11,657 bases of DNA from a virus (lineage: Duplodnaviria > Heunggongvirae > Uroviricota > Caudoviricetes). Below, piece by piece: positions 4,051 through 10,427 of this stretch. The notes beneath the pieces were generated by a model that was not told where the DNA came from, searched no databases, and saw only the letters and a program-made list of their open reading frames with translations. The first letter of the stretch is position 1, and each line of letters begins with the position of its first letter. Where the stretch lies: IMG/VR virus record IMGVR_UViG_2537562189_000011, positions 1 through 11,657 of that record; one strand, 5' to 3'. Both the position numbers and the translations under genes were made by a program.

Positions 4051-4140
4051 AAAAAAAGTACCTGGGTTAAGTAAGGAACTCCAGGACGCGGCAAAAACTC
4101 AACCGTTTTTCATAAGGAAATCAGCAATCGCACCGATCGT

Positions 4141-4336: not shown

Positions 4337-5029
4337 TTAGCTGTCCTGGTAATTGCGCCATATTTCATCACCAGCACCATCTATACCCATTTCGGCATAA
4401 GTGCGATCGACTGCCTTTTTCAGGTCTCCGAAATTATCCGGCGGCTCCGGTGCCCTCTGTGCCTTCCTTGAACATTCCAGCCGTCGCATCGTGATGTGAT
4501 GCCGTTCCTTGTCTGTCTCCACCAGCTGCATGACTTCACCCCATCGCGCCGCCGCCCTCCGGTAAAAGCCTTTCGCCTCCAGTTCCTCCGCTATGCGGTC
4601 ATGTACCATCGTCACCCCCTCAGAACGAAATATCATCACCGTAAGGGTCATCGCTCCCGCTGGTGGCTGATTACCCTGTGTGCCTGTGGTTTTGCGTCTG
4701 TTCCCGCCAGGAAGTGCCGCACGGGCACTGATTACGCTGTCTGCAATAACCTGATAACCCTGCCGCGTTTCCCCATTCTGTCCGGTCCACTGGCTGACCT
4801 GCATCGTGCCGGATACGCTGGCAACGTCGCCTTTTTGATGTTTAGCCAGGAAGTCGGCCTGCTTACCAAATGCGATGACCGATAGCCATAACGTCGCCTG
4901 CCCATCCTGCGCCTGACTACATGGCAGCGATACCGCCATACGCGCCAGCGTCATCGGTGTACCCTTGCTGGTCTGTTTTACCTGCTGGTCGTCCACCAGC
5001 CGCCCGTAAGCCGCTATCTGTGCTGTCAT
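4337..5029 (-). CDS. Two-domain protein: N-terminal SSB-like OB fold, Gly/Pro/Gln linker, C-terminal PerC-like small-regulator domain
   Basis: 230-aa ORF, ATG at 5029 overlapping the upstream stop (ATGA). Residues 1-105 follow the SSB OB-fold pattern (GRL..D..V ... TLW.SVI.FGK.A.F..K..KGD ... WT...G..R). The C-terminal ~90 aa carries AEELEAKGFYRRAAARW, recalled from PerC-type regulators. An internal ATG at 4609 has a strong GAGGGGG Shine-Dalgarno 5 nt upstream. Confidence 0.55.
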   Translation of the reverse strand: MTAQIAAYGRLVDDQQVKQTSKGTPMTLARMAVSLPCSQAQDGQATLWLSVIAFGKQADFLAKHQKGDVASVSGTMQVSQWTGQNGETRQGYQVIADSVISARAALPGGNRRKTTGTQGNQPPAGAMTLTVMIFRSEGVTMVHDRIAEELEAKGFYRRAAARWGEVMQLVETDKERHHITMRRLECSRKAQRAPEPPDNFGDLKKAVDRTYAEMGIDGAGDEIWRNYQDS

Positions 5030-5288: not shown

Positions 5289-5479
5289 TCTCACTTTTTC
5301 GCCTCACTTTTTCAAGCGTCTCACTTCGTCGCAATTGGGATTTTTGGTTTTTCTATGTGTGTGTTTCATAAGTATTTTTTTACCCCTCACTTTTGAGGAT
5401 GTATACAGGTAGAAAAGTGAGGGAGAGCAGGCTAATTTTGGCCCTCTTTCTATCCACCTCGCTTTTGCTCCTCACTTTT
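5289..5479. repeat. Iteron cluster (CTCACTTTT) flanking an AT-rich segment; candidate replication origin
   Basis: Perfect copies at 5290-5298, 5304-5312, 5387-5395 and 5471-5479, one inverted copy (AAAAGTGAG, 5413-5421), and degenerate copies at 5320-5328 (CTCACTTCG) and 5459-5467 (CTCGCTTTT). AT-rich core at 5331-5384. Lies immediately 3' of the helicase gene. Confidence 0.6.
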
Positions 5480-6459
5480 ATAGCGGCGCTACATCATCCC
5501 CATCGATACGAATAACCCCATCTTTTTCCAGCTTGTACAGCCAGCGCCGGAAGTTTTTCATTTCATACCCCAGCTTTTTCATGTCATCACGTAACAGCGG
5601 GATCGTGCACTTGTCGCCGTTCTGTGTGCGTGAACGGATGCACCCCCATAGCGCGGTATGGTTTTCCGTCTTGTTCCCTGCCTCCTCGATGCGCTCCAGT
5701 TCAACGGGAGGGCGCGGCTTATCCACCACCACCAGCGACGTGATTAATTCACCGTCAGCGTCGGTAAAAAGCTCCACCACGCGTAAGTCATATGCGGCTT
5801 CTTTGAGTTCCTCCGCGTCCTTCATTTTGGTGCATGAGATAACCAGCGCTTCGCCTCCTGCGTCCTCCCTGCGTATCCGGTATTCAGCATCCAGCGAAGC
5901 ACGAAATGCACTGGAACCGCGCGCGCCTTTCGCTCATCCTTGCCGGAATGGTGAACCACCAGCACCGTGGCCCCTGTGCGTCGATTCAGTTCGTCACAAC
6001 CACGGATAAACGCCCCCATATCACGGGAATCATTTCATCATTCCCACCAAGGCAACGCGCCAGCGTATCCAGAATAATCATGCGTACAGGTTTACCCGTT
6101 TCCCGCTCCACCTGACGGGCAGCGATAACCATTTCATCAACATCAAGCGGGGCAGCCGGAAAGATGGGGCGGTTTACCAGATACAGATTTTTCACCTGCT
6201 CATCGTGCACAACCTCCCAGGCTTTTACACGACGCGGAACACCTATACCGCCTTCACCAACCACATAGAGAACCGCACCATGTGCAACCCTGCGGCCTCC
6301 CCACTGGCGACCAGTGGCAACATGGCACGCCCACGATCCGGCAAGGAATGATTTATAGGACCCGCTAGCCCCGTATATGCTGCATAGCGATACCGCCGGA
6401 ATAATCCCCTTAACCACGTAATCCAGTTGCGTGTCGTATCCGGTAGATCCAACGCTCAT
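5478..6459 (-). pseudogene. Replication helicase (AAA_25 / RepA-like) disrupted by two frameshifts
   Basis: Three consecutive minus-strand ORFs in three frames together form one helicase-like protein: Walker A GASGSYKS and Walker B MIILDTL (6459-5986), GATVLVVHHSGKD (6019-5822), C-terminal domain (5825-5478). Reading continuity needs about +1 nt near 6033-6035 and -2 nt in the CCGCGCGCGCC tract at 5917-5927, which restores ...HHSGKDERKARGSSAFRASLD.... Confidence 0.7.
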
Positions 6460-6875
6460 CGGTAGCGTGGTTTTTCGCTGGTGGTTTTTTCTTCCGCCGG
6501 CTCTTTCCCGCGCACCCGTTCCAGGTATTCGCGCCAGTTCTCCCGCATATGGCTGTGCATCCCTTCGGGGTAATAATTCGCATCAGTTACACCCGCCGCC
6601 GCCAGTTTGTGCGCAATGGCATTAATATTTGATGGCCTGATGTGGCCTGCCTTGTACAGCCGGACACAATAGCGCCCCTCGTCGATGATTCTCAGGTCTG
6701 CCAGTTCATCCAGTTGATCATCAGCCAGCACAACGGGAGGCACATTATCGCCAGCCAGTCGCCCGTCCTGTTCCTGCCACTGTTTCGCATGTGCCCAGGC
6801 ATCACTACCCGCAAAAATAATGACTTCGGTCATCTTGTCGTAAGGCTGTTTTTTTAAGTTCGGTGCGCTTTTCAT
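6456..6875 (-). CDS. Hypothetical protein (139 aa), coupled upstream partner of the helicase gene
   Basis: ATG at 6875 with AGGGG Shine-Dalgarno; ATGA overlaps with both the upstream gene and the helicase start. No confident domain assignment. Confidence 0.55.
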   Translation of the reverse strand: MKSAPNLKKQPYDKMTEVIIFAGSDAWAHAKQWQEQDGRLAGDNVPPVVLADDQLDELADLRIIDEGRYCVRLYKAGHIRPSNINAIAHKLAAAGVTDANYYPEGMHSHMRENWREYLERVRGKEPAEEKTTSEKPRYR

Positions 6876-7171
6876 TTCTTGCCCCTGAATCCGTTAATCA
6901 TGGTTTTCAGCTTCTGGATGTTTGCACGTGCCCTGGCGTTGCTGGTGGGCACGTTATGCGGCGCGGTCTGTACCAGAGAAAAATCACGCCGGAACTGATA
7001 AACAGGCATCACGCAATCATATTCGTAACCTTCACGGCGGTAAGTTACGCACCGTCCCGCCACGCCCTTAATCATTACCGTGCCGCCGTACTGGTCGCGG
7101 TAAATATCACCGCGCGTAAATTTAGGGTGAGTGTTGCCACTGGCAGTTAAGCCAGAATATTTAAGTTTCAT
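6872..7171 (-). CDS. Hypothetical protein (99 aa), first gene of the replication operon
   Basis: ATG at 7171 with a GGAGA upstream; ATGA overlap with the next gene; preceded by a 230-bp AT-rich intergenic region. No recognised domain. Confidence 0.5.
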   Translation of the reverse strand: MKLKYSGLTASGNTHPKFTRGDIYRDQYGGTVMIKGVAGRCVTYRREGYEYDCVMPVYQFRRDFSLVQTAPHNVPTSNARARANIQKLKTMINGFRGKK

Positions 7172-7403
7172 TATTTTTATTCTCCGGTGTGCTGTTCGTT
7201 ATATCTGTCGTGCAATGTCTCTATTTCCTGCAACACATTTATTACAGGCTCAAGAAGCGTTATTAATGATGTAATAATCCGCGTTTTTTTTGCTATTACG
7301 TTCATTATCGCCAAAGGATTCAAGGCACATCCGCAATATTTCCATCATATTTTCACTGTGAGAAAGTGCAAGAAATACGCGATCTGTTGTTTCGTGGTAA
7401 ATA

Positions 7404-7637
7404 TCACGCATGGCTTACATCCTCAGGAAATTTTCTTCTGTAACGAGCCTCTGCCACATATTCCGCATAATCGGCGGCGATATTCAGTACATCAAGCCCC
7501 GTTGATTTATATTCTCTCGTGGAAAGTAAGAAAAAAGCCGCTCTAATAAGTTCTGGCATTGACGAAAGCGCATCAGCCGCATCATCAGGAACGCCGGAAA
7601 ATTCCTGTTTCAGGGAATTAAAACGATCATCACGCAT
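7404..7637 (-). CDS. Hypothetical protein (77 aa); possibly the C-terminal half of a gene split at a homopolymer tract
   Basis: ATG at 7637 sits immediately 3' of a G9 run (C9 on the plus strand, 7640-7648). One extra G would fuse it in frame to the upstream ORF. Confidence 0.4.
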   Translation of the reverse strand: MRDDRFNSLKQEFSGVPDDAADALSSMPELIRAAFFLLSTREYKSTGLDVLNIAADYAEYVAEARYRRKFPEDVSHA

Positions 7638-7870
7638 AACCCCCCCCCATTTTCACAATCAGCAATCAGGATAGCTTTGGCCTCATTCAGCGCCGTATCA
7701 GCACTAAATTGCATGACAGCCAGTGAGTGAGGAACGAAAGCACCGGCATATTCTGTTTCGCTGGTGGCGTGCTTATGTGCCCTGTCCGCGATAACAGAAA
7801 TATCAATCAGCGCGTGCATCAGCGTTTTGATGGCTTCGGCGGCTGCGTCCGGTGTGGTTTTATTGTGCAT
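7610..7870 (-). CDS. Hypothetical protein (86 aa); possibly the N-terminal half of a gene split at a homopolymer tract
   Basis: ATG at 7870; the reading frame runs through the G9 tract (ENGGG) and stops 27 nt later. Confidence 0.4.
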   Translation of the reverse strand: MHNKTTPDAAAEAIKTLMHALIDISVIADRAHKHATSETEYAGAFVPHSLAVMQFSADTALNEAKAILIADCENGGGLCVMIVLIP

Positions 7871-8072
7871 AAAGCATCCCCTGAATATTCGTGTTAATCA
7901 TTCCGGCACGTTTTGTGATTTCCTGTAATGATTCCCTTGTGGCGACAATTGCTTCATCTGGTAAGTGGTAATTACACACCACGCGACCTTTATCCACATT
8001 GACCAGTAGCTGCCCTGTGAATTTCTCACGAAACTGAATGCGGTTAAGGTCAGTAAGTGACAGATTAATCAT
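7860..8072 (-). CDS. Hypothetical small protein (70 aa)
   Basis: ATG at 8072 preceded by a strong AGGAGG Shine-Dalgarno at 6-nt spacing; the ORF track's longer version starts at a GTG at 8114. Start overlaps the stop of the upstream gene. Confidence 0.5.
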   Translation of the reverse strand: MINLSLTDLNRIQFREKFTGQLLVNVDKGRVVCNYHLPDEAIVATRESLQEITKRAGMINTNIQGMLYAQ

Positions 8073-8262
8073 AGCGCACCTCCTGACGAATACGGGCGGC
8101 AAATACAGCAACACAACCTGACGGGCAACGGCTATGCGCTTCGCGTTCCGTCCAGGCGGTTACGTGGATGATTTGAGATTCTCCGGCACTCAGTGCCAGA
8201 AAACGCCACACAAAGGCCGTTTGTGTGTGTACAAGGTGTGGGGTATGATTTACGGCAACCAT
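8065..8262 (-). CDS. Hypothetical small protein (65 aa)
   Basis: ATG at 8262 preceded by GAGGAG at 5-nt spacing; the ORF track's longer version starts at a GTG at 8361. No recognised domain. Confidence 0.5.
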   Translation of the reverse strand: MVAVNHTPHLVHTQTAFVWRFLALSAGESQIIHVTAWTEREAHSRCPSGCVAVFAARIRQEVRYD

Positions 8263-8351
8263 AACGGCTCCTCGTTTACGTTGTTGGTTAGAAGCCCTGC
8301 GAGTGGTAATGACACTTGCGGGGCTTTGCTTTTTTAAGTGCTCTTGTGTTA

Positions 8352-8397
8352 AGGTGGTCACCTAACAATAGAAAGGCTAATTCAATAGGTGACCACT
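8352..8397. promoter_or_regulatory. Operator-like inverted repeat pair (GGTGGTCACC / GGTGACCAC) in the divergent intergenic region
   Basis: GGTGGTCACC at 8353-8362 and its near reverse complement GGTGACCAC at 8388-8396, centres 35 bp apart, between the minus-strand gene starting at 8262 and the plus-strand gene starting at 8457. Confidence 0.45.
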
Positions 8398-8456
8398 TGT
8401 CAACAATCAAACGCGATAAAAGCCCTAAAGGGGACGGGCAATCCCCACAATTCAGA

Positions 8457-8588
8457 ATGCGAATTTCTCCAGAGCTAAAAGAGCAATTCGATAAAGAAGC
8501 ACAGAGCGACGGCATAAGCCTAGCCAACTGGCTTAAAGAGTTGGGGCGCACTGAACTAAAGCGGCGCGGTATAGAACCCAAAGGATAA
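8457..8588 (+). CDS. Ribbon-helix-helix (Arc/CopG-like) DNA-binding protein, copy 1 (43 aa)
   Basis: MRISPELKEQFDKEAQSDGISLANWLKELGRTELKRRG fits the strand-helix-helix pattern of ribbon-helix-helix regulators (Arc/CopG-like). Nested in the 90-aa ORF-track ORF 8316-8588; Shine-Dalgarno is weak. Confidence 0.45.
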   Translation: MRISPELKEQFDKEAQSDGISLANWLKELGRTELKRRGIEPKG

Positions 8589-8590
8589 AA

Positions 8591-8637
8591 ACTATCAGCG
8601 CCGTGGTGTGAGGTACTACGGCGCATTGCTTTACAGG
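8591..8637 (+). repeat. 47-bp conserved hairpin element, copy 1
   Basis: ACTATCAGCGCCGTGGTGTGAGGTACTACGGCGCATTGCTTTACAGG, 46 of 47 identical to 9332-9378. Contains a GCGCCGT / ACGGCGC stem (extendable to 11 bp with G-U pairs). Begins 2 nt after the stop codon and ends 8 nt before the next ATG. Confidence 0.7.
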
Positions 8638-8645
8638 GCAGTACC

Positions 8646-8873
8646 ATGACCAACAACACACTATCACCAATACAAGACACGCAAACGCAAGATGATGAAA
8701 TCATCCGGCAAAGGCAGTCAGAAGCCTGCGCCAGACTTGAGGAAGAACTAACCAGAACAAAAATACCACCACCAGCGCCGCGCTTAGTGCCACCAGAAAA
8801 ATTTGCCCTTGAAGATTTTGTCGATAAATACCCACGGCGGCTTAAATCCGGCAAAAACCGACCGCCAGGATGA
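8646..8873 (+). CDS. Hypothetical small protein (75 aa), MTNN... N-terminus
   Basis: ATG 8 nt after the 47-bp element. The first ~50 nt are homologous to the start of the ORF at 9387. No recognised domain. Confidence 0.4.
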   Translation: MTNNTLSPIQDTQTQDDEIIRQRQSEACARLEEELTRTKIPPPAPRLVPPEKFALEDFVDKYPRRLKSGKNRPPG

Positions 8874-8892
8874 GTGCACAAAACCGAACTAT

Positions 8893-8930
8893 GAAACGGA
8901 TTATTCCGTTTCCGGGGCGTTTGTGTGTGT
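8893..8930 (+). terminator. Candidate terminator hairpin after the first plus-strand gene pair
   Basis: GAAACGGA (8893-8900), loop TTAT, TCCGTTTC (8905-8912), followed by CGGGGCGTTTGTGTGTGT. The T-tract is interrupted, so this is weak. A second hairpin ACGCCCCG / CGGGGCGT (8993-9026) is followed by TTGTTGTTTTGGG. Confidence 0.3.
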
Positions 8931-9036
8931 ATAAAGAGTAAGCTATGCTCTTTTATAGCCATAATCGTTACCTCAATTAATGGTTTGGTTAGACGCCCCG
9001 TATGTGTTCCCATCACTGCGGGGCGTTGTTGTTTTG

Positions 9037-9129
9037 GGTGTATTTCACCTTCATTTTTAAATCTACATTCAGGTGAAATACACCGCAAGACTTTTTTTAT
9101 CTTTTTTTTTGCGTATACTGAAATACACC
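9037..9129 (+). promoter_or_regulatory. Promoter/operator region of the second ribbon-helix-helix gene: GGTG-N5-CACC inverted repeats plus a TATACT -10
   Basis: GGTGTATTTCACC at 9037-9049 and its reverse complement GGTGAAATACACC at 9072-9084 (centres 35 bp apart); a third half-site TGAAATACACC at 9119-9129 overlaps a TATACT at 9114-9119; T-rich stretch at 9091-9110; AGGAG Shine-Dalgarno at 9137-9141. Confidence 0.5.
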
Positions 9130-9149
9130 GATTATCAGGAGAACCAGAA

Positions 9150-9329
9150 ATGGCAACAGGTGCAAAGAACGCAAAATCACAAATGACAACGGTCAGAATC
9201 CCGCATGAGGTAATGACCGATATTGAGCAACTTAAAGAACCTGGCGAAAGTACCGCCGGATTTCTAGTTACGGCAGCAAAAGGCGAGATCAAACGCCGCC
9301 AGCGCCGCAAGGCCAAAGAATCAGAATAA
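9150..9329 (+). CDS. Ribbon-helix-helix (Arc/CopG-like) DNA-binding protein, copy 2 (59 aa)
   Basis: ATG at 9150 with CAGGAG Shine-Dalgarno at 8-nt spacing. TTVRIPHEVMTDIEQLKEPGESTAGFLVTAAKGEIKRR fits the ribbon-helix-helix pattern. Nested in the 134-aa ORF-track ORF 8925-9329. Confidence 0.55.
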   Translation: MATGAKNAKSQMTTVRIPHEVMTDIEQLKEPGESTAGFLVTAAKGEIKRRQRRKAKESE

Positions 9330-9331
9330 TT

Positions 9332-9378
9332 ACTATCAGCGCCGTGGCGTGAGGTACTACGGCGCATTGCTTTACAGG
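9332..9378 (+). repeat. 47-bp conserved hairpin element, copy 2
   Basis: ACTATCAGCGCCGTGGCGTGAGGTACTACGGCGCATTGCTTTACAGG; same placement as copy 1 (2 nt after the stop, 8 nt before the next ATG). Confidence 0.7.
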
Positions 9379-9386
9379 TACACACA

Positions 9387-9536
9387 ATGACCAATAAAGA
9401 ATCAACCAATACACCATCGCAAAAAACGAACAGAGAGCACGAAAATATGGCGCTCGAGCATGAATCAGAAAGATTCGCTCCATGCGCTTTTGTCCTTGAT
9501 GAGTTTCTAAAAAATATTCACGTTCTGAACGGATGA
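9387..9536 (+). CDS. Hypothetical small protein (49 aa), MTNK... N-terminus; not in the ORF track
   Basis: ATG at 9387 to TGA at 9534-9536, translated by hand: MTNKESTNTPSQKTNREHENMALEHESERFAPCAFVLDEFLKNIHVLNG. Position and first codons parallel the ORF at 8646. Confidence 0.3.
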   Translation: MTNKESTNTPSQKTNREHENMALEHESERFAPCAFVLDEFLKNIHVLNG

Positions 9537-9657
9537 AAATGGCAGCACAATACGGCCCCAACAAGCAAGGTAATTGCCCACCAGCCTGATCACGGTTATC
9601 ATGTTCGGGCTTATGATTGTTGACACATACGGCGCAGCGGGTTAATTGTTCAGAAAG

Positions 9658-9684
9658 GCGGTTCCATATCGGGACCGCTTTTTT
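9658..9684 (+). terminator. Rho-independent terminator closing the plus-strand regulatory cassette
   Basis: Stem GCGGTTCC (9658-9665), loop ATATC, GGGACCGC (9671-9678; 8 bp including one G-U), followed by TTTTTT (9679-9684). Confidence 0.6.
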
Positions 9685-9864
9685 ATGCCTGAAAATACCC
9701 TATAGCATGGCTTTTCAGATTCACCAGGGCGAACGAATCCCCGCCCCTGTACGGGCGTATATTTCATCATGGTTATACCTCAGTATTATGGCGTTTATTC
9801 CCGATACCGAGATCCCGGTATCGGTCAATAATGGATTGGTGGTGGCTGTGTGCCGCCAGTCTTT

Positions 9865-10053: not shown

Positions 10054-10427
10054 TATTGCCCCCTTTCGTTTCTTAAAGAGTTATTTCGTGTTCTATTGCG
10101 TTGGGATGTGTCTGATTGTGTCAGGATGATTCAGAGTTGGCAAATGTTGGTGTCGCATGGTTTACAGAAAGAGGAATAATCAGGATAAAATCATTTAAAT
10201 TCATGTTAATACAAAGGCATAAAATCTTGTTTTATGCTTTTTTTCGCACGCTTTAACGCGTAATTCACTAATGTATAAAAAACCAGCTGATCATTAAAAA
10301 TCAGTAACTTATAAATCTGTATTCTTTTTGGCCTCTTGTTCGTGATTGTGTCACGTTGTTGCACATTGTTTCACGTTGTATCTGTGCACTTATCCAGTAT
10401 GCGCATACTGAAAAAACACGAGAAAAA

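What the first reader, a model, noticed from the sequence alone, without database searches (positions are those of the whole stretch)
6872..8262. Run of six small genes of unknown function between the regulatory cassette and the helicase
Six minus-strand ORFs of 65-139 aa with credible ribosome-binding sites and overlapping starts and stops show no domain I can recognise. In satellites, small genes in this position often encode helper-interference, packaging-redirection or derepression functions. Two of them (6872-7171 and 6456-6875) are translationally coupled to the helicase and may be replication accessories.
Basis: inference. Interest (0 to 1): 0.4.

Follow-up and report, generated by a model that had tools for sequence, protein, structure and literature searches.

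The report
Early-operon small genes of a phage satellite
The run of small genes is real and conserved: it is the front of the replication operon of an E. coli capsid-forming phage satellite, but two genes belong to known families, two ORFs are halves of one gene, and the 139-aa ORF is the helicase's own N-terminus.

Summary
The minus-strand ORF chain at 8262-6872 exists. Its genes are translationally coupled, present in hundreds of E. coli genomes and under purifying selection. It is not six unknown genes.

- 8262-8065 is an Icd-like protein. It matches the same models as the 65-aa P4 ORF I take to be kil.
- 7171-6872 is an orthologue of RgdR (DUF4222), a characterised EHEC regulator. Its RGD motif and K35 are intact.
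- 7870-7610 and 7637-7404 are two halves of one ~154-aa gene, split here at a hypervariable poly-G tract (G9).
- ORF 6875-6456 is the N-terminal domain of the 466-aa RepA-family replicase, cut off by a 1-nt deletion. The replicase carries two more frameshifts.
- Only the 70-aa, ~154-aa and 77-aa genes are true unknowns. The 70-aa and 77-aa genes have no match in phage genomes.

The RgdR stop overlaps the replicase start in 76 of 76 related loci. DUF4222 genes also sit next to replication initiators in lambdoid prophages. The predicted RgdR core is a Tudor/KOW-like barrel.

I read the run as the early operon of a cf-PICI satellite: division block, unknown accessories, RgdR, replicase. I do not read it as an interference or packaging module. 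Interest is modest.

The parts
8291..8327 (-). Conserved GC-rich hairpin 29-65 nt upstream of the Icd-like start, followed on the sense strand by a C-rich, G-poor motif (CTAACCAACAACG). It marks the upstream boundary of the conserved block.
   Evidence: The terminator scan scores it as a + strand terminator, with 15 pairs. A hairpin sits at the same place in all 57 distinct Icd-like upstream regions, in 29 different sequences. Six of 8 consensus pairs show compensatory changes. Its function is not established.
8065..8262 (-). Gene A, 65 aa: an Icd-like protein and the first gene of the chain. It matches the same models as the 65-aa P4 ORF I take to be kil.
   Evidence: NCBIfam NF033153 at 6.9e-17 (cutoff 25 bits, score 61.3). 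PHROG 29966 and 1743. 95% identical to ECs1577 of Sakai Sp7. The 65-aa P4 ORF whose Shine-Dalgarno pairs with CI RNA hits the same two models at 1.6e-21 and 2.2e-21.
7860..8072 (-). Gene B, 70 aa, unknown function (PHROG 340). Its start overlaps the stop of A by 8 nt.
   Evidence: PHROG 340 at 1e-23. No Pfam, NCBIfam, PADLOC or PDB match. No tblastn hit in 50,697 phage genomes. Only 21 cluster representatives among 1.84 billion proteins. Annotated as a 70-aa CDS in relatives.
7610..7870 (-). ORF C, 86 aa here: the N-terminal half of a ~154-aa gene (PHROG 2512). The out-of-frame tail begins after the poly-G tract.
   Evidence: Matches PHROG 2512 positions 1-77 of 154, and PHROG 5146. It is fused to D in E. 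coli 042 and in the 120 best database hits. pN/pS is 0.14.
7640..7648 (-). Poly-G tract (G9 on the coding strand) at the C/D junction. Its length decides whether C and D are one protein or two.
   Evidence: Tract lengths in 54 loci: G7 in 15, G8 in 23, G9 in 12, G10 in 3, G11 in 1. The length differs between loci whose 250 + 250 nt flanks are identical. G8 in L001, G10 in 042.
7404..7637 (-). ORF D, 77 aa: the C-terminal half of the ~154-aa gene. It has its own ATG just after the G-run.
   Evidence: Matches PHROG 2512 positions 78-154, and PHROG 24341 at 1.8e-41. pN/pS is 0.09 over 12 alleles. In other elements it is a separate gene, with a 127-aa gene lying between C and D.
7177..7411 (-). 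Gene E, 77 aa in relatives (PHROG 2196). Here a 1-nt insertion near 7294 breaks it into a 53-aa ORF (7250-7411) plus an out-of-frame remainder.
   Evidence: L013 is 99.2% identical with one gap and encodes the intact 77-aa protein. PHROG 2196 at 2.8e-42 for the intact form. 44 alleles without internal stops, pN/pS 0.38. ECs1580 of Sp7 is a remote relative at 5.9e-11. No hit in phage genomes.
6872..7171 (-). Gene F, 99 aa: an RgdR orthologue (DUF4222). Its stop overlaps the replicase start (ATGA).
   Evidence: Pfam DUF4222 at 2.1e-23. 78% identical over all 99 residues to ECs1581/RgdR. R20-G21-D22 and K35 are present (sequence; PMC3378721). The AF2 core has pLDDT about 90 and is a Tudor/KOW-like barrel followed by a C-terminal helix.
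5478..6875 (-). RepA-family replicase, 466 aa in relatives. Here 1-nt deletions at 6485, 6033 and 5933 break it into four ORFs.
   Evidence: Indel list against L001 and L002. tblastn of the intact protein maps to four frames of the window. Pfam AAA_25 at 2.4e-43 on the intact protein. The ~125-aa N-terminal domain is shared by three replicase size classes.

Best explanation
The interval is the promoter-proximal part of the early (replication) operon of an Escherichia coli capsid-forming phage-inducible chromosomal island (cf-PICI). The element is of the EcCIEDL933 / OI-51 / Sp7 kind.

Shown: the order on the minus strand is a structured leader hairpin, then an Icd-like gene. Next come three satellite-specific genes of unknown function: 70 aa; ~154 aa, made of two helical halves joined at a poly-G/poly-Gly hinge; and 77 aa. 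Then come RgdR (DUF4222) and the replicase. All are joined by overlapping stops and starts. Icd-like and RgdR form a conserved frame. The genes between them are shuffled among elements.

Inferred mechanism: when a helper phage switches on AlpA, the operon is transcribed and read through by coupled translation. The Icd-like product halts host division. RgdR is a small Tudor/KOW-like barrel with a basic C-terminal helix and non-specific DNA binding. I infer that it acts at the transcription/replication interface next to the replicase with which it is co-translated. Its published effects on LEE1 and motility would then be by-products of that activity. The three unknown proteins are probably host- or helper-directed accessories, but their targets are unknown.

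In this particular copy the replicase, gene E and the C-D gene are frameshifted. Either the copy is defective or the sequence carries indel errors.
For: Element identity:
- The window carries int, AlpA (Pfam 5e-18), a RepA-type replicase, SSB, PerC, an HK97-type capsid, protease, portal and an HNH gene.
- Sakai Sp7 (OI-51) has the same layout. EcCIEDL933 is the published prototype cf-PICI.

Operon character:
- Starts and stops overlap throughout.
- The order Int - AlpA - Icd-like - variable genes - E - RgdR - replicase - SSB - PerC recurs across 85 loci.

Selection:
- pN/pS is 0.09-0.56, with no internal stops.

RgdR and replication:
- The replicase start overlaps the RgdR stop in 76 of 76 loci. 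This holds although the replicases fall into three size classes.
- Short DUF4222 genes sit directly before, or one gene before, HTH_36 / Phg_2220_C / lambda-P replication genes. This is seen in a Klebsiella phage and in Erwinia, Pantoea and Citrobacter prophages.

RgdR fold:
- The DUF4222 core folds as a 5-stranded barrel (pLDDT about 90).

Published RgdR data:
- It activates LEE1 and represses motility.
- It binds DNA non-specifically.
- It occurs in strains without LEE.
Against: - No expression or functional data exist for this element.
- AlpA dependence of this operon is carried over from other PICIs (PMC6092414, PMC11773190). It was not shown here, and no convincing promoter was found.
- The same RgdR allele occurs with replicase N-terminal domains only 44% identical to one another. 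This argues against a specific RgdR-replicase contact.
- In two of the four lambdoid contexts an Ash/pRha gene lies between DUF4222 and the initiator.
- Cell-division inhibition by the Icd-like protein rests on family naming and on my memory of P1 Icd and P4 Kil.
- The functions of B, C-D and E remain unknown. The C-D model is poor (pLDDT 50).
Confidence: 0.7

Rival explanations
1. One reading: the small genes encode helper-phage interference, packaging redirection or helper derepression, as P4 epsilon or the SaPI and PICI interference genes do.
For: The position matches P4, where epsilon, orf151 and cnr lie between the immunity region and alpha. B and E have no match in phage genomes, and B belongs to a very small family. 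That fits a satellite-specific job. Their function is otherwise open.
Against: There is no BLAST similarity to P4 epsilon, orf151 or cnr, and P4 cnr is DUF5375, not DUF4222. There are no PADLOC hits. In EcCICFT073 the interference gene rppA lies after the ori, and the genes cloned and tested for interference were taken from that region. cf-PICIs assemble their own small capsids and take only tails from the helper. Two of the genes already have other assignments.
Confidence: 0.15
2. Cargo reading: the genes are host-directed 'morons'. On this view RgdR, like the PerC/Pch gene downstream, is carried to regulate host virulence and motility genes, not to serve the satellite life cycle.
For: Deleting rgdR or OI-51 lowers type III secretion and sheep colonisation. 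RgdR activates LEE1 and represses motility (PMC3378721). The window protein keeps R20 and K35, which matter for activity.
Against: RgdR homologues are common in strains without LEE. The gene is fused by an ATGA overlap to the replicase in 76 of 76 loci. DUF4222 sits in the early/replication operon of lambdoid prophages of other genera. R20 is not conserved among natural alleles (R, L, N, H, S or P), whereas G21-D22 are invariant. Cargo genes usually sit at element ends, not inside a coupled operon.
Confidence: 0.2
3. Decay or artefact reading for this copy: the run is part of a degraded, non-functional element, or of an error-rich assembly. On this view the ORF pattern the first reader saw is partly an artefact of frameshifts.
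For: Against the closest relatives the window shows single-base indels at 2257, 4051, 4300, 4654, 5933, 6033, 6485, about 7294 and 8329, a compensating insertion/deletion pair at 4060/4064, and the G-tract difference. Most are deletions, and several fall in homopolymer runs. They break the replicase into four ORFs, truncate gene E and fuse SSB to PerC. Apart from 6485, these indels are absent from the relatives compared.
Against: A, B and RgdR are intact, and all the genes are intact in relatives. The 6485 deletion recurs in an independent contig (L029). There it splits the replicase exactly at the domain boundary and is followed by an in-frame ATG. G9 also occurs in 11 other loci.
Confidence: 0.35

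Closest known systems
RgdR (ECs1581) of O-island 51 / CP-933C / Sp7 in E. coli O157:H7 (Flockhart et al. 2012, PMC3378721)
   Same: Both are 99 aa with a DUF4222 domain. They are 78% identical, and RGD at 20-22 and K35 are kept. Both sit directly before, and overlapping, the satellite replicase, downstream of an Icd-like gene.
   Different: The partner replicase is a 466-aa RepA/AAA_25 helicase here, not the 710-aa primase of Sp7. Residue 10 is A, as in the CFT073 and ED1a variants. Activity on LEE1 and motility was not tested for this allele.
Left (early) operon of satellite phage P4: kil/eta - (CI RNA) - epsilon - orf151 - cnr - alpha
   Same: In both, an AlpA/Vis-type regulator lies upstream and a 65-aa Icd-like gene heads the operon. 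Several small genes follow, and then the replicase.
   Different: No CI-RNA-type complementarity to the gene's Shine-Dalgarno is present in this class. The same test recovers the complementary segments in P4 that I take, from memory, to be seqA, seqB and seqC. Epsilon and cnr have no counterpart. The orf151 N-terminus aligns only weakly with DUF4222 (hhalign probability 9.8%). This element also encodes its own capsid.
EcCIEDL933, the prototype capsid-forming PICI (Alqurainy et al., bioRxiv 10.1101/2022.09.08.507074)
   Same: Both have int, alpA, a small-gene run, a replicase, SSB, PerC, and an HK97-type capsid, protease and portal module with HNH.
   Different: The three or four genes between Icd-like and RgdR are replaced. 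Sp7 has ECs1578-1580; only ECs1580 is remotely related to gene E. The replicase class differs. The window stops before terS and terL.
Phage P1 immI operon (c4 RNA - icd - ant)
   Same: Both have a small Icd-family ORF at the head of an operon, with downstream genes translationally coupled (family model NF033153; the P1 details are from my own knowledge).
   Different: There is no Rfam C4 RNA match in the window. There is no BLAST-level similarity to phage Icd genes: the only tblastn hit in 50,697 phage records is another cf-PICI that was deposited as a phage.
Homopolymeric-tract contingency (phase-variable) loci
   Same: A G7-G11 tract inside coding sequence changes length between otherwise identical sequences and switches the reading frame.
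   Different: Both outcomes may be functional, because D keeps its own ATG and C and D are separate genes in other elements. Only about one third of tracts are in frame, as expected without selection on frame. Switching within a strain was not shown.

Membership tests
Icd-like protein family (NCBIfam NF033153) | Score above the curated cutoff of the family model | tested here: met
   61.3 bits against a cutoff of 25, E 6.9e-17, residues 17-60. The 65-aa P4 ORF scores 76.1 bits on the same model.
Icd-like protein family (NCBIfam NF033153) | First gene of the early operon, downstream of an AlpA/Vis-type regulator; about 65 aa | tested here: met
   Window order, 85 related loci, P4 map.
Icd-like protein family (NCBIfam NF033153) | Translation start controlled by a same-strand antisense-acting RNA (P4 CI with seqA/seqC, or P1 c4) | tested here: not met
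   The complementarity scan recovers the P4 pairing but finds none to the Shine-Dalgarno in the window. No Rfam C4 hit. A different conserved hairpin is present instead.
Icd-like protein family (NCBIfam NF033153) | Inhibits cell division or kills when expressed | not testable with these tools
   Needs expression in E. coli and microscopy.
RgdR / DUF4222 | DUF4222 domain above the Pfam gathering score | tested here: met
   82.1 bits against 27, covering the full 53-position model.
RgdR / DUF4222 | Full-length (99 aa) orthology to ECs1581, with the RGD motif at 20-22 and K35 | tested here: met
   78% identity over residues 1-99. R20, G21, D22 and K35 are read from the sequence. Their importance is taken from PMC3378721.
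RgdR / DUF4222 | Activates LEE1 / type III secretion and represses motility | not testable with these tools
   Published for ECs1581 and C1493 only.
Capsid-forming PICI (cf-PICI) | PICI-type int, alpA and rep together with its own capsid, protease, portal, connectors and HNH | tested here: met
   ORFs and the annotation of relatives. AlpA Pfam 5e-18. AAA_25 replicase.
Capsid-forming PICI (cf-PICI) | Own terS and terL | tested here: inconclusive
   The window ends at the HNH stop codon. Sp7 has terS and terL just beyond HNH.
P4 epsilon / cnr (derepression, copy-number control) | Sequence similarity to P4 epsilon or Cnr | tested here: not met
   blastp finds nothing better than E 0.008 over a 22-residue stretch. 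Cnr is DUF5375.
PICI interference proteins (RppA type) | Located after the ori and blocks the helper's small terminase subunit | tested here: not met
   These genes lie before the replicase, whereas rppA lies after the ori. Sequence comparison with RppA was not done.
Known anti-phage defence systems (PADLOC) | Match to any PADLOC model | tested here: not met
   No hits at E up to 0.1 for any of the proteins.
Phase-variable homopolymeric tract | Tract length varies between otherwise identical sequences and changes the reading frame | tested here: met
   Lengths 7/8/10, 8/9, 9/10 and 7/9 occur in four groups with identical 500-nt flanks. Frame consequences.
Phase-variable homopolymeric tract | Reversible switching within one strain, with a phenotype | not testable with these tools
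   Needs deep amplicon sequencing and protein detection.

The most novel reading that the evidence does not exclude
DUF4222/RgdR may not be primarily a virulence regulator. It may be a widespread Tudor/KOW-like adaptor that lambdoid phages and PICI satellites co-translate with their replication initiators. It would link RNA polymerase or DNA to the start of replication, and its effects on LEE and flagella in EHEC would be spill-over. The operon it closes would then be gated at its head by a toxic Icd-like ORF behind a conserved covarying hairpin, possibly through Rho or an antisense RNA. A hypermutable poly-G hinge inside the operon would toggle a two-domain accessory protein between fused and split forms.
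Probability: 0.25. Interest if true: 0.6.

Novelty: new member of a known kind. Interest (0 to 1): 0.35.

Why it matters
cf-PICIs are a recently recognised and very common class of satellites, yet the genes between alpA and the replicase have not been studied.

This analysis gives a corrected gene map of that block. It ties a published EHEC virulence regulator (RgdR) to the satellite's replication module and to a Tudor/KOW-like fold, which gives a concrete hypothesis for how it acts.

It narrows the true unknowns to three small protein families, two of which have no match in phage genomes. It also flags two features that can be tested directly: a covarying leader hairpin before the Icd-like gene, and a hypermutable poly-G hinge.

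None of this overturns current understanding. It mainly corrects an over-count and points to simple experiments.

Tried and rejected
- Pfam, NCBIfam and PADLOC gave nothing for B, C, D, E or the replicase N-terminal domain.
- The PDB sequence search gave nothing for A, B, C-D, E or F.
- Rfam at E up to 1 gave only an irrelevant Brucella sRNA hit at 10199-10277, and no C4 RNA.
- P4-type immunity was tested with a complementarity scan. It recovers the complementary P4 segments but finds none at the Shine-Dalgarno of gene A. The single 9-mer match (8657/8288) is at chance level.
- An antisense promoter inside gene A was considered. A TATGAT hexamer is present in two Icd-like classes, but it coincides with conserved N-H-T codons and the -35 is weak. 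I keep this only as a low-probability idea.
- P4 orf151 as a DUF4222 relative: hhalign probability 9.8%, so inconclusive.
- The AlphaFold model of the fused C-D protein had pLDDT 50. I therefore ran no fold search on it.
- The BFVD fold search for RgdR returned only uncharacterised small barrels and DUF1653 proteins.
- The genome-contig scan with a single protein returned only 2 loci.
- The literature search for Icd-like proteins returned nothing useful.
- The promoter scan found no convincing sigma-70 promoter for the operon.
Full report
**Observation**

The minus strand between 8262 and 6872 carries an unbroken chain of small ORFs.
- Each ORF is preceded by a Shine-Dalgarno-like sequence.
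- Neighbouring ORFs overlap: A/B by 8 nt, B/C by 11 nt, D/E by 8 nt, and F/replicase by 4 nt (ATGA). All of this is read directly.
- The block is AT-richer (43-49% GC) than the capsid genes (about 55%).

The chain is not a chance pattern.
- Every ORF hits a PHROG family at E 1e-15 to 1e-49.
- Megablast finds part of 6400-8400 in 1801 of 5426 complete E. coli genomes. At least 80% of it is present in 272 genomes at 95-97% identity.
- Across 85 related loci, 5 to 44 distinct alleles per gene have no internal stop. Pooled pN/pS is 0.56 for A, 0.14 for C, 0.09 for D, 0.38 for E and 0.21 for F. Gene B showed no variation in these loci.

**What the element is**

The window reads as follows on the minus strand:
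- integrase (11657-10428) and AlpA (10053-9865, Pfam 5e-18);
- a region with plus-strand ribbon-helix-helix-like ORFs;
- the small-gene run;
- a RepA/AAA_25 replicase, SSB and PerC;
- an HK97-type major capsid protein, prohead protease, portal and connectors, and an HNH gene.

The closest relatives sit next to tqsA and pntB in E. coli 14EC001 and 042. Sakai prophage Sp7 (O-island 51, CP-933C) has the same plan. This is the plan of the capsid-forming PICI EcCIEDL933.

**Gene by gene**

- A (8262-8065, 65 aa) is an Icd-like protein (NF033153, 6.9e-17) and is 95% identical to ECs1577.
  - P4 has a 65-aa ORF whose Shine-Dalgarno pairs with the CI RNA.
  - I take that ORF to be kil. Kil is described as the nested, truncated form of Eta in PMC10111431.
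  - It hits the same NCBIfam and PHROG models at 1.6e-21 and 2.2e-21.
- B (8072-7860, 70 aa) matches only PHROG 340.
  - It has no hit in 50,697 phage genomes.
  - It has only 21 cluster representatives among 1.84 billion proteins.
- C (7870-7610) and D (7637-7404) match the two halves of PHROG 2512 (154 aa).
  - In E. coli 042, and in the 120 best database hits, they form one protein of 150-161 aa.
  - The model is poor (pLDDT 50). It suggests two helical hairpins joined by a disordered Gly-rich linker.
- E (7411-7177) is 77 aa in relatives (PHROG 2196).
  - The window has one extra base near 7294 relative to L013 (99.2% identity), which truncates E to 53 aa.
- F (7171-6872, 99 aa) carries DUF4222 (2.1e-23) and is 78% identical along its whole length to RgdR/ECs1581.
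  - RgdR activates LEE1 and type III secretion, represses motility and binds DNA non-specifically. R20 and K35 influence its activity (PMC3378721).
  - The window protein has A10, R20, G21, D22, Q27, K35, R45 and R61.
- The '139-aa gene' (6875-6456) is residues 1-135 of the 466-aa replicase of L001 and L002.
  - A 1-nt deletion at 6485, in an A7 run on the coding strand, ends it.
  - Further deletions at 6033 and 5933 break the rest of the replicase into three more ORFs.

**Comparative picture**

I compared 80 IMG/VR loci, two genome loci and three annotated genomes.
- The order Int - AlpA - Icd-like - variable genes - E family - RgdR - replicase - SSB - PerC recurs.
- The genes between Icd-like and E are swapped among elements. 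Sp7 has ECs1578 and ECs1579 instead of B, C and D. ECs1580 is a remote relative of E (5.9e-11).
- In some elements C (74 aa) and D (73-84 aa) are separate genes with a 127-aa B-like gene between them.
- The replicase start overlaps the RgdR stop in 76 of 76 loci. This holds although the replicases fall into classes of 465-471, 582-604 and 710-714 aa.
- All these classes share the ~125-aa N-terminal domain at 43-100% identity.
- The same RgdR allele occurs with N-terminal domains only 44% identical to one another. Allele-specific co-evolution is therefore not evident.

**RgdR fold and neighbourhood**

- With a shallow alignment, AlphaFold2 gives a confident core (residues 20-70, pLDDT about 90). 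The core has five strands and a short helix and is followed by a long C-terminal helix.
- Several of these domains bind RNA polymerase. That statement is from my own knowledge, and the resemblance is at fold level only.
- DUF4222 also occurs outside satellites.
  - In Klebsiella phage KpnBHU6, a 59-aa DUF4222 gene (1e-20) overlaps by 4 nt the start of an HTH_36 / Phg_2220_C / DnaD_N-type initiator.
  - In lambdoid prophages of Erwinia, Pantoea and Citrobacter, the gene sits after cro and a CII-like gene. It lies directly before, or one gene before, the initiator and lambda-P genes.
- DUF4222 is therefore an early-operon gene attached to replication modules of several unrelated kinds.

**Leader hairpin**

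- A GC-rich hairpin lies at 8291-8327, that is 29-65 nt upstream of the start of A.
- An equivalent hairpin is found before every one of 57 distinct Icd-like upstream regions, in 29 different sequences.
- Six of 8 consensus pairs show compensatory changes.
- On the sense strand it is followed by a conserved C-rich, G-poor motif (CTAACCAACAACG) and not by a U-tract.
- On the opposite strand the tail has at least 5 T in 10 nt in 38 of 57 variants. The scan scores the hairpin as a plus-strand terminator.
- I could not decide between three readings: a sense-strand regulatory structure, possibly with Rho loading downstream; a terminator of an antisense RNA; or a simple module boundary.

**Poly-G tract**

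- The run at 7648-7640 is G9 in the window, G8 in 14EC001 and G10 in 042.
- In 54 loci the counts are G7 in 15, G8 in 23, G9 in 12, G10 in 3 and G11 in 1. Only about a third are in frame.
- The length differs between loci whose 250 + 250 nt flanks are identical, in four independent groups. The tract therefore changes much faster than point substitutions accumulate.
- G7 and G10 give one C-D protein. G8 and G9 give C with a short foreign tail plus D read from its own ATG.

**Sequence quality**

- Against the closest relatives the window has single-base indels at 2257, 4051, 4300, 4654, 5933, 6033, 6485, about 7294 and 8329, and a compensating insertion/deletion pair at 4060/4064.
- Most are deletions, and several are in homopolymers. 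This is a pattern typical of long-read assembly errors (my inference).
- They break the replicase and gene E, and they fuse SSB to PerC into a 230-aa ORF.
- The 6485 deletion also occurs in an independent contig, L029. There it splits the replicase exactly at the domain boundary.

**How it most likely works**

- Shown: this is a coupled operon head that consists of Icd-like, B, C-D, E and RgdR and runs into the replicase.
- Inferred: AlpA-dependent expression after helper induction (by analogy with PICIs). A division block by the Icd-like protein. RgdR acting at the transcription/replication interface. Unknown host- or helper-directed roles for B, C-D and E.
- I put 0.7 on this overall reading. 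Most of that weight rests on the descriptive part.

**Rivals**

These readings are not mutually exclusive, and the third concerns only this copy.
- An interference, derepression or packaging module (0.15).
- Host-directed cargo regulators (0.2).
- A decayed or error-ridden copy (0.35).

**Comparison with what is known, and novelty**

- The element type, the Icd-like family and RgdR are known.
- B, C-D and E are catalogued but uncharacterised families.
- New here are the corrected gene map, the invariant RgdR-replicase junction, the wider DUF4222-replication linkage, the Tudor/KOW-like fold, the covarying hairpin and the hypermutable hinge.
- These are useful leads of modest surprise.

Noticed in passing
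window 5478-6875 and 4337-5029: The RepA-family replicase is broken into four ORFs by 1-nt deletions at 6485, 6033 and 5933. A 1-nt deletion at 4654 fuses SSB and PerC into one 230-aa ORF. Further 1-nt deletions lie in homopolymers at 2257, 4051 and 4300. The pattern looks like long-read assembly error, or a decaying element.
   Followed up: partly
window 7640-7648: A hypervariable poly-G tract sits at the junction of ORFs C and D. It ranges from G7 to G11 in 54 loci, and only about a third of tracts are in frame. The length differs between loci with identical 500-nt flanks.
   Followed up: yes
window 8291-8327 (a second copy of the adjoining motif lies at 8985-8998): A covarying GC-rich hairpin followed by CTAACCAACAACG precedes every Icd-like gene examined. 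Its role is undecided: a leader structure, a Rho gate or an antisense terminator. The motif TTGGTTAGA(A/C)GCCC recurs at 8985-8998, which may be a remnant of a second Icd-like module.
   Followed up: partly
window 8354-8403: A 10-bp perfect inverted repeat (GTGGTCACCT at 8396-8387, AGGTGACCAC at 8363-8354) lies just downstream of a TTGACA hexamer (8403-8398). It could be an operator or promoter for the small-gene operon. The -10 element is weak.
   Followed up: no
window 8263-9860: The 'regulatory cassette' holds a 75-nt direct repeat (8582-8656 and 9323-9397, 85% identical). Each copy spans the end of a plus-strand ribbon-helix-helix-like ORF (weak HicB match, 9e-4), a hairpin, and the start of an 'MTN...' ORF. 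The 373-aa minus-strand ORF at 8288-9409 looks spurious. ECs1576 of Sakai is its counterpart.
   Followed up: partly
window 6456-6875; loci L001, L003, L004, L038: An N-terminal domain of about 125 aa with no Pfam match is shared (43-100% identity) by replicases of three size classes: 465-471, 582-604 and 710-714 aa. It always follows RgdR directly. In L029 it is a separate ORF.
   Followed up: partly
L088 (LR881103, 'Escherichia phage vB_KppS-Ant', 16.5 kb): This record is deposited as a phage but has the gene content of a cf-PICI. It carries int, AlpA, a D5-type primase, capsid, portal, terS and terL. Its Icd-like domain is the C-terminus of a 324-aa ORF, which resembles the nested eta/kil arrangement of P4.
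   Followed up: partly
loci L082, L026, L057, L035, L021, L023 (second, divergent Icd-like copies): In this Icd-like class, a segment about 75 nt upstream is complementary to the sequence overlapping the Shine-Dalgarno. The pairing is kept by compensatory changes: CCTGTAGTG/CACTACAGG, CCAGATGA/TCATCTGG, CCCAATTT/AAATTGGG and CCCAAAGTG/CACTTTGGG. This points to a leader structure that sequesters the Shine-Dalgarno.
   Followed up: no
alignment A1 of RgdR homologues (window 6872-7171): The arginine of the 'RGD' motif is not conserved among natural alleles (R, L, N, H, S or P at position 20). G21-D22-I23 and most of residues 21-66 are invariant.
   Followed up: partly
window ends (1 and 11657): The window starts exactly at the stop codon of the HNH gene and ends at the integrase start codon. 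terS, terL and the attachment sites of the element therefore lie outside it.
   Followed up: no
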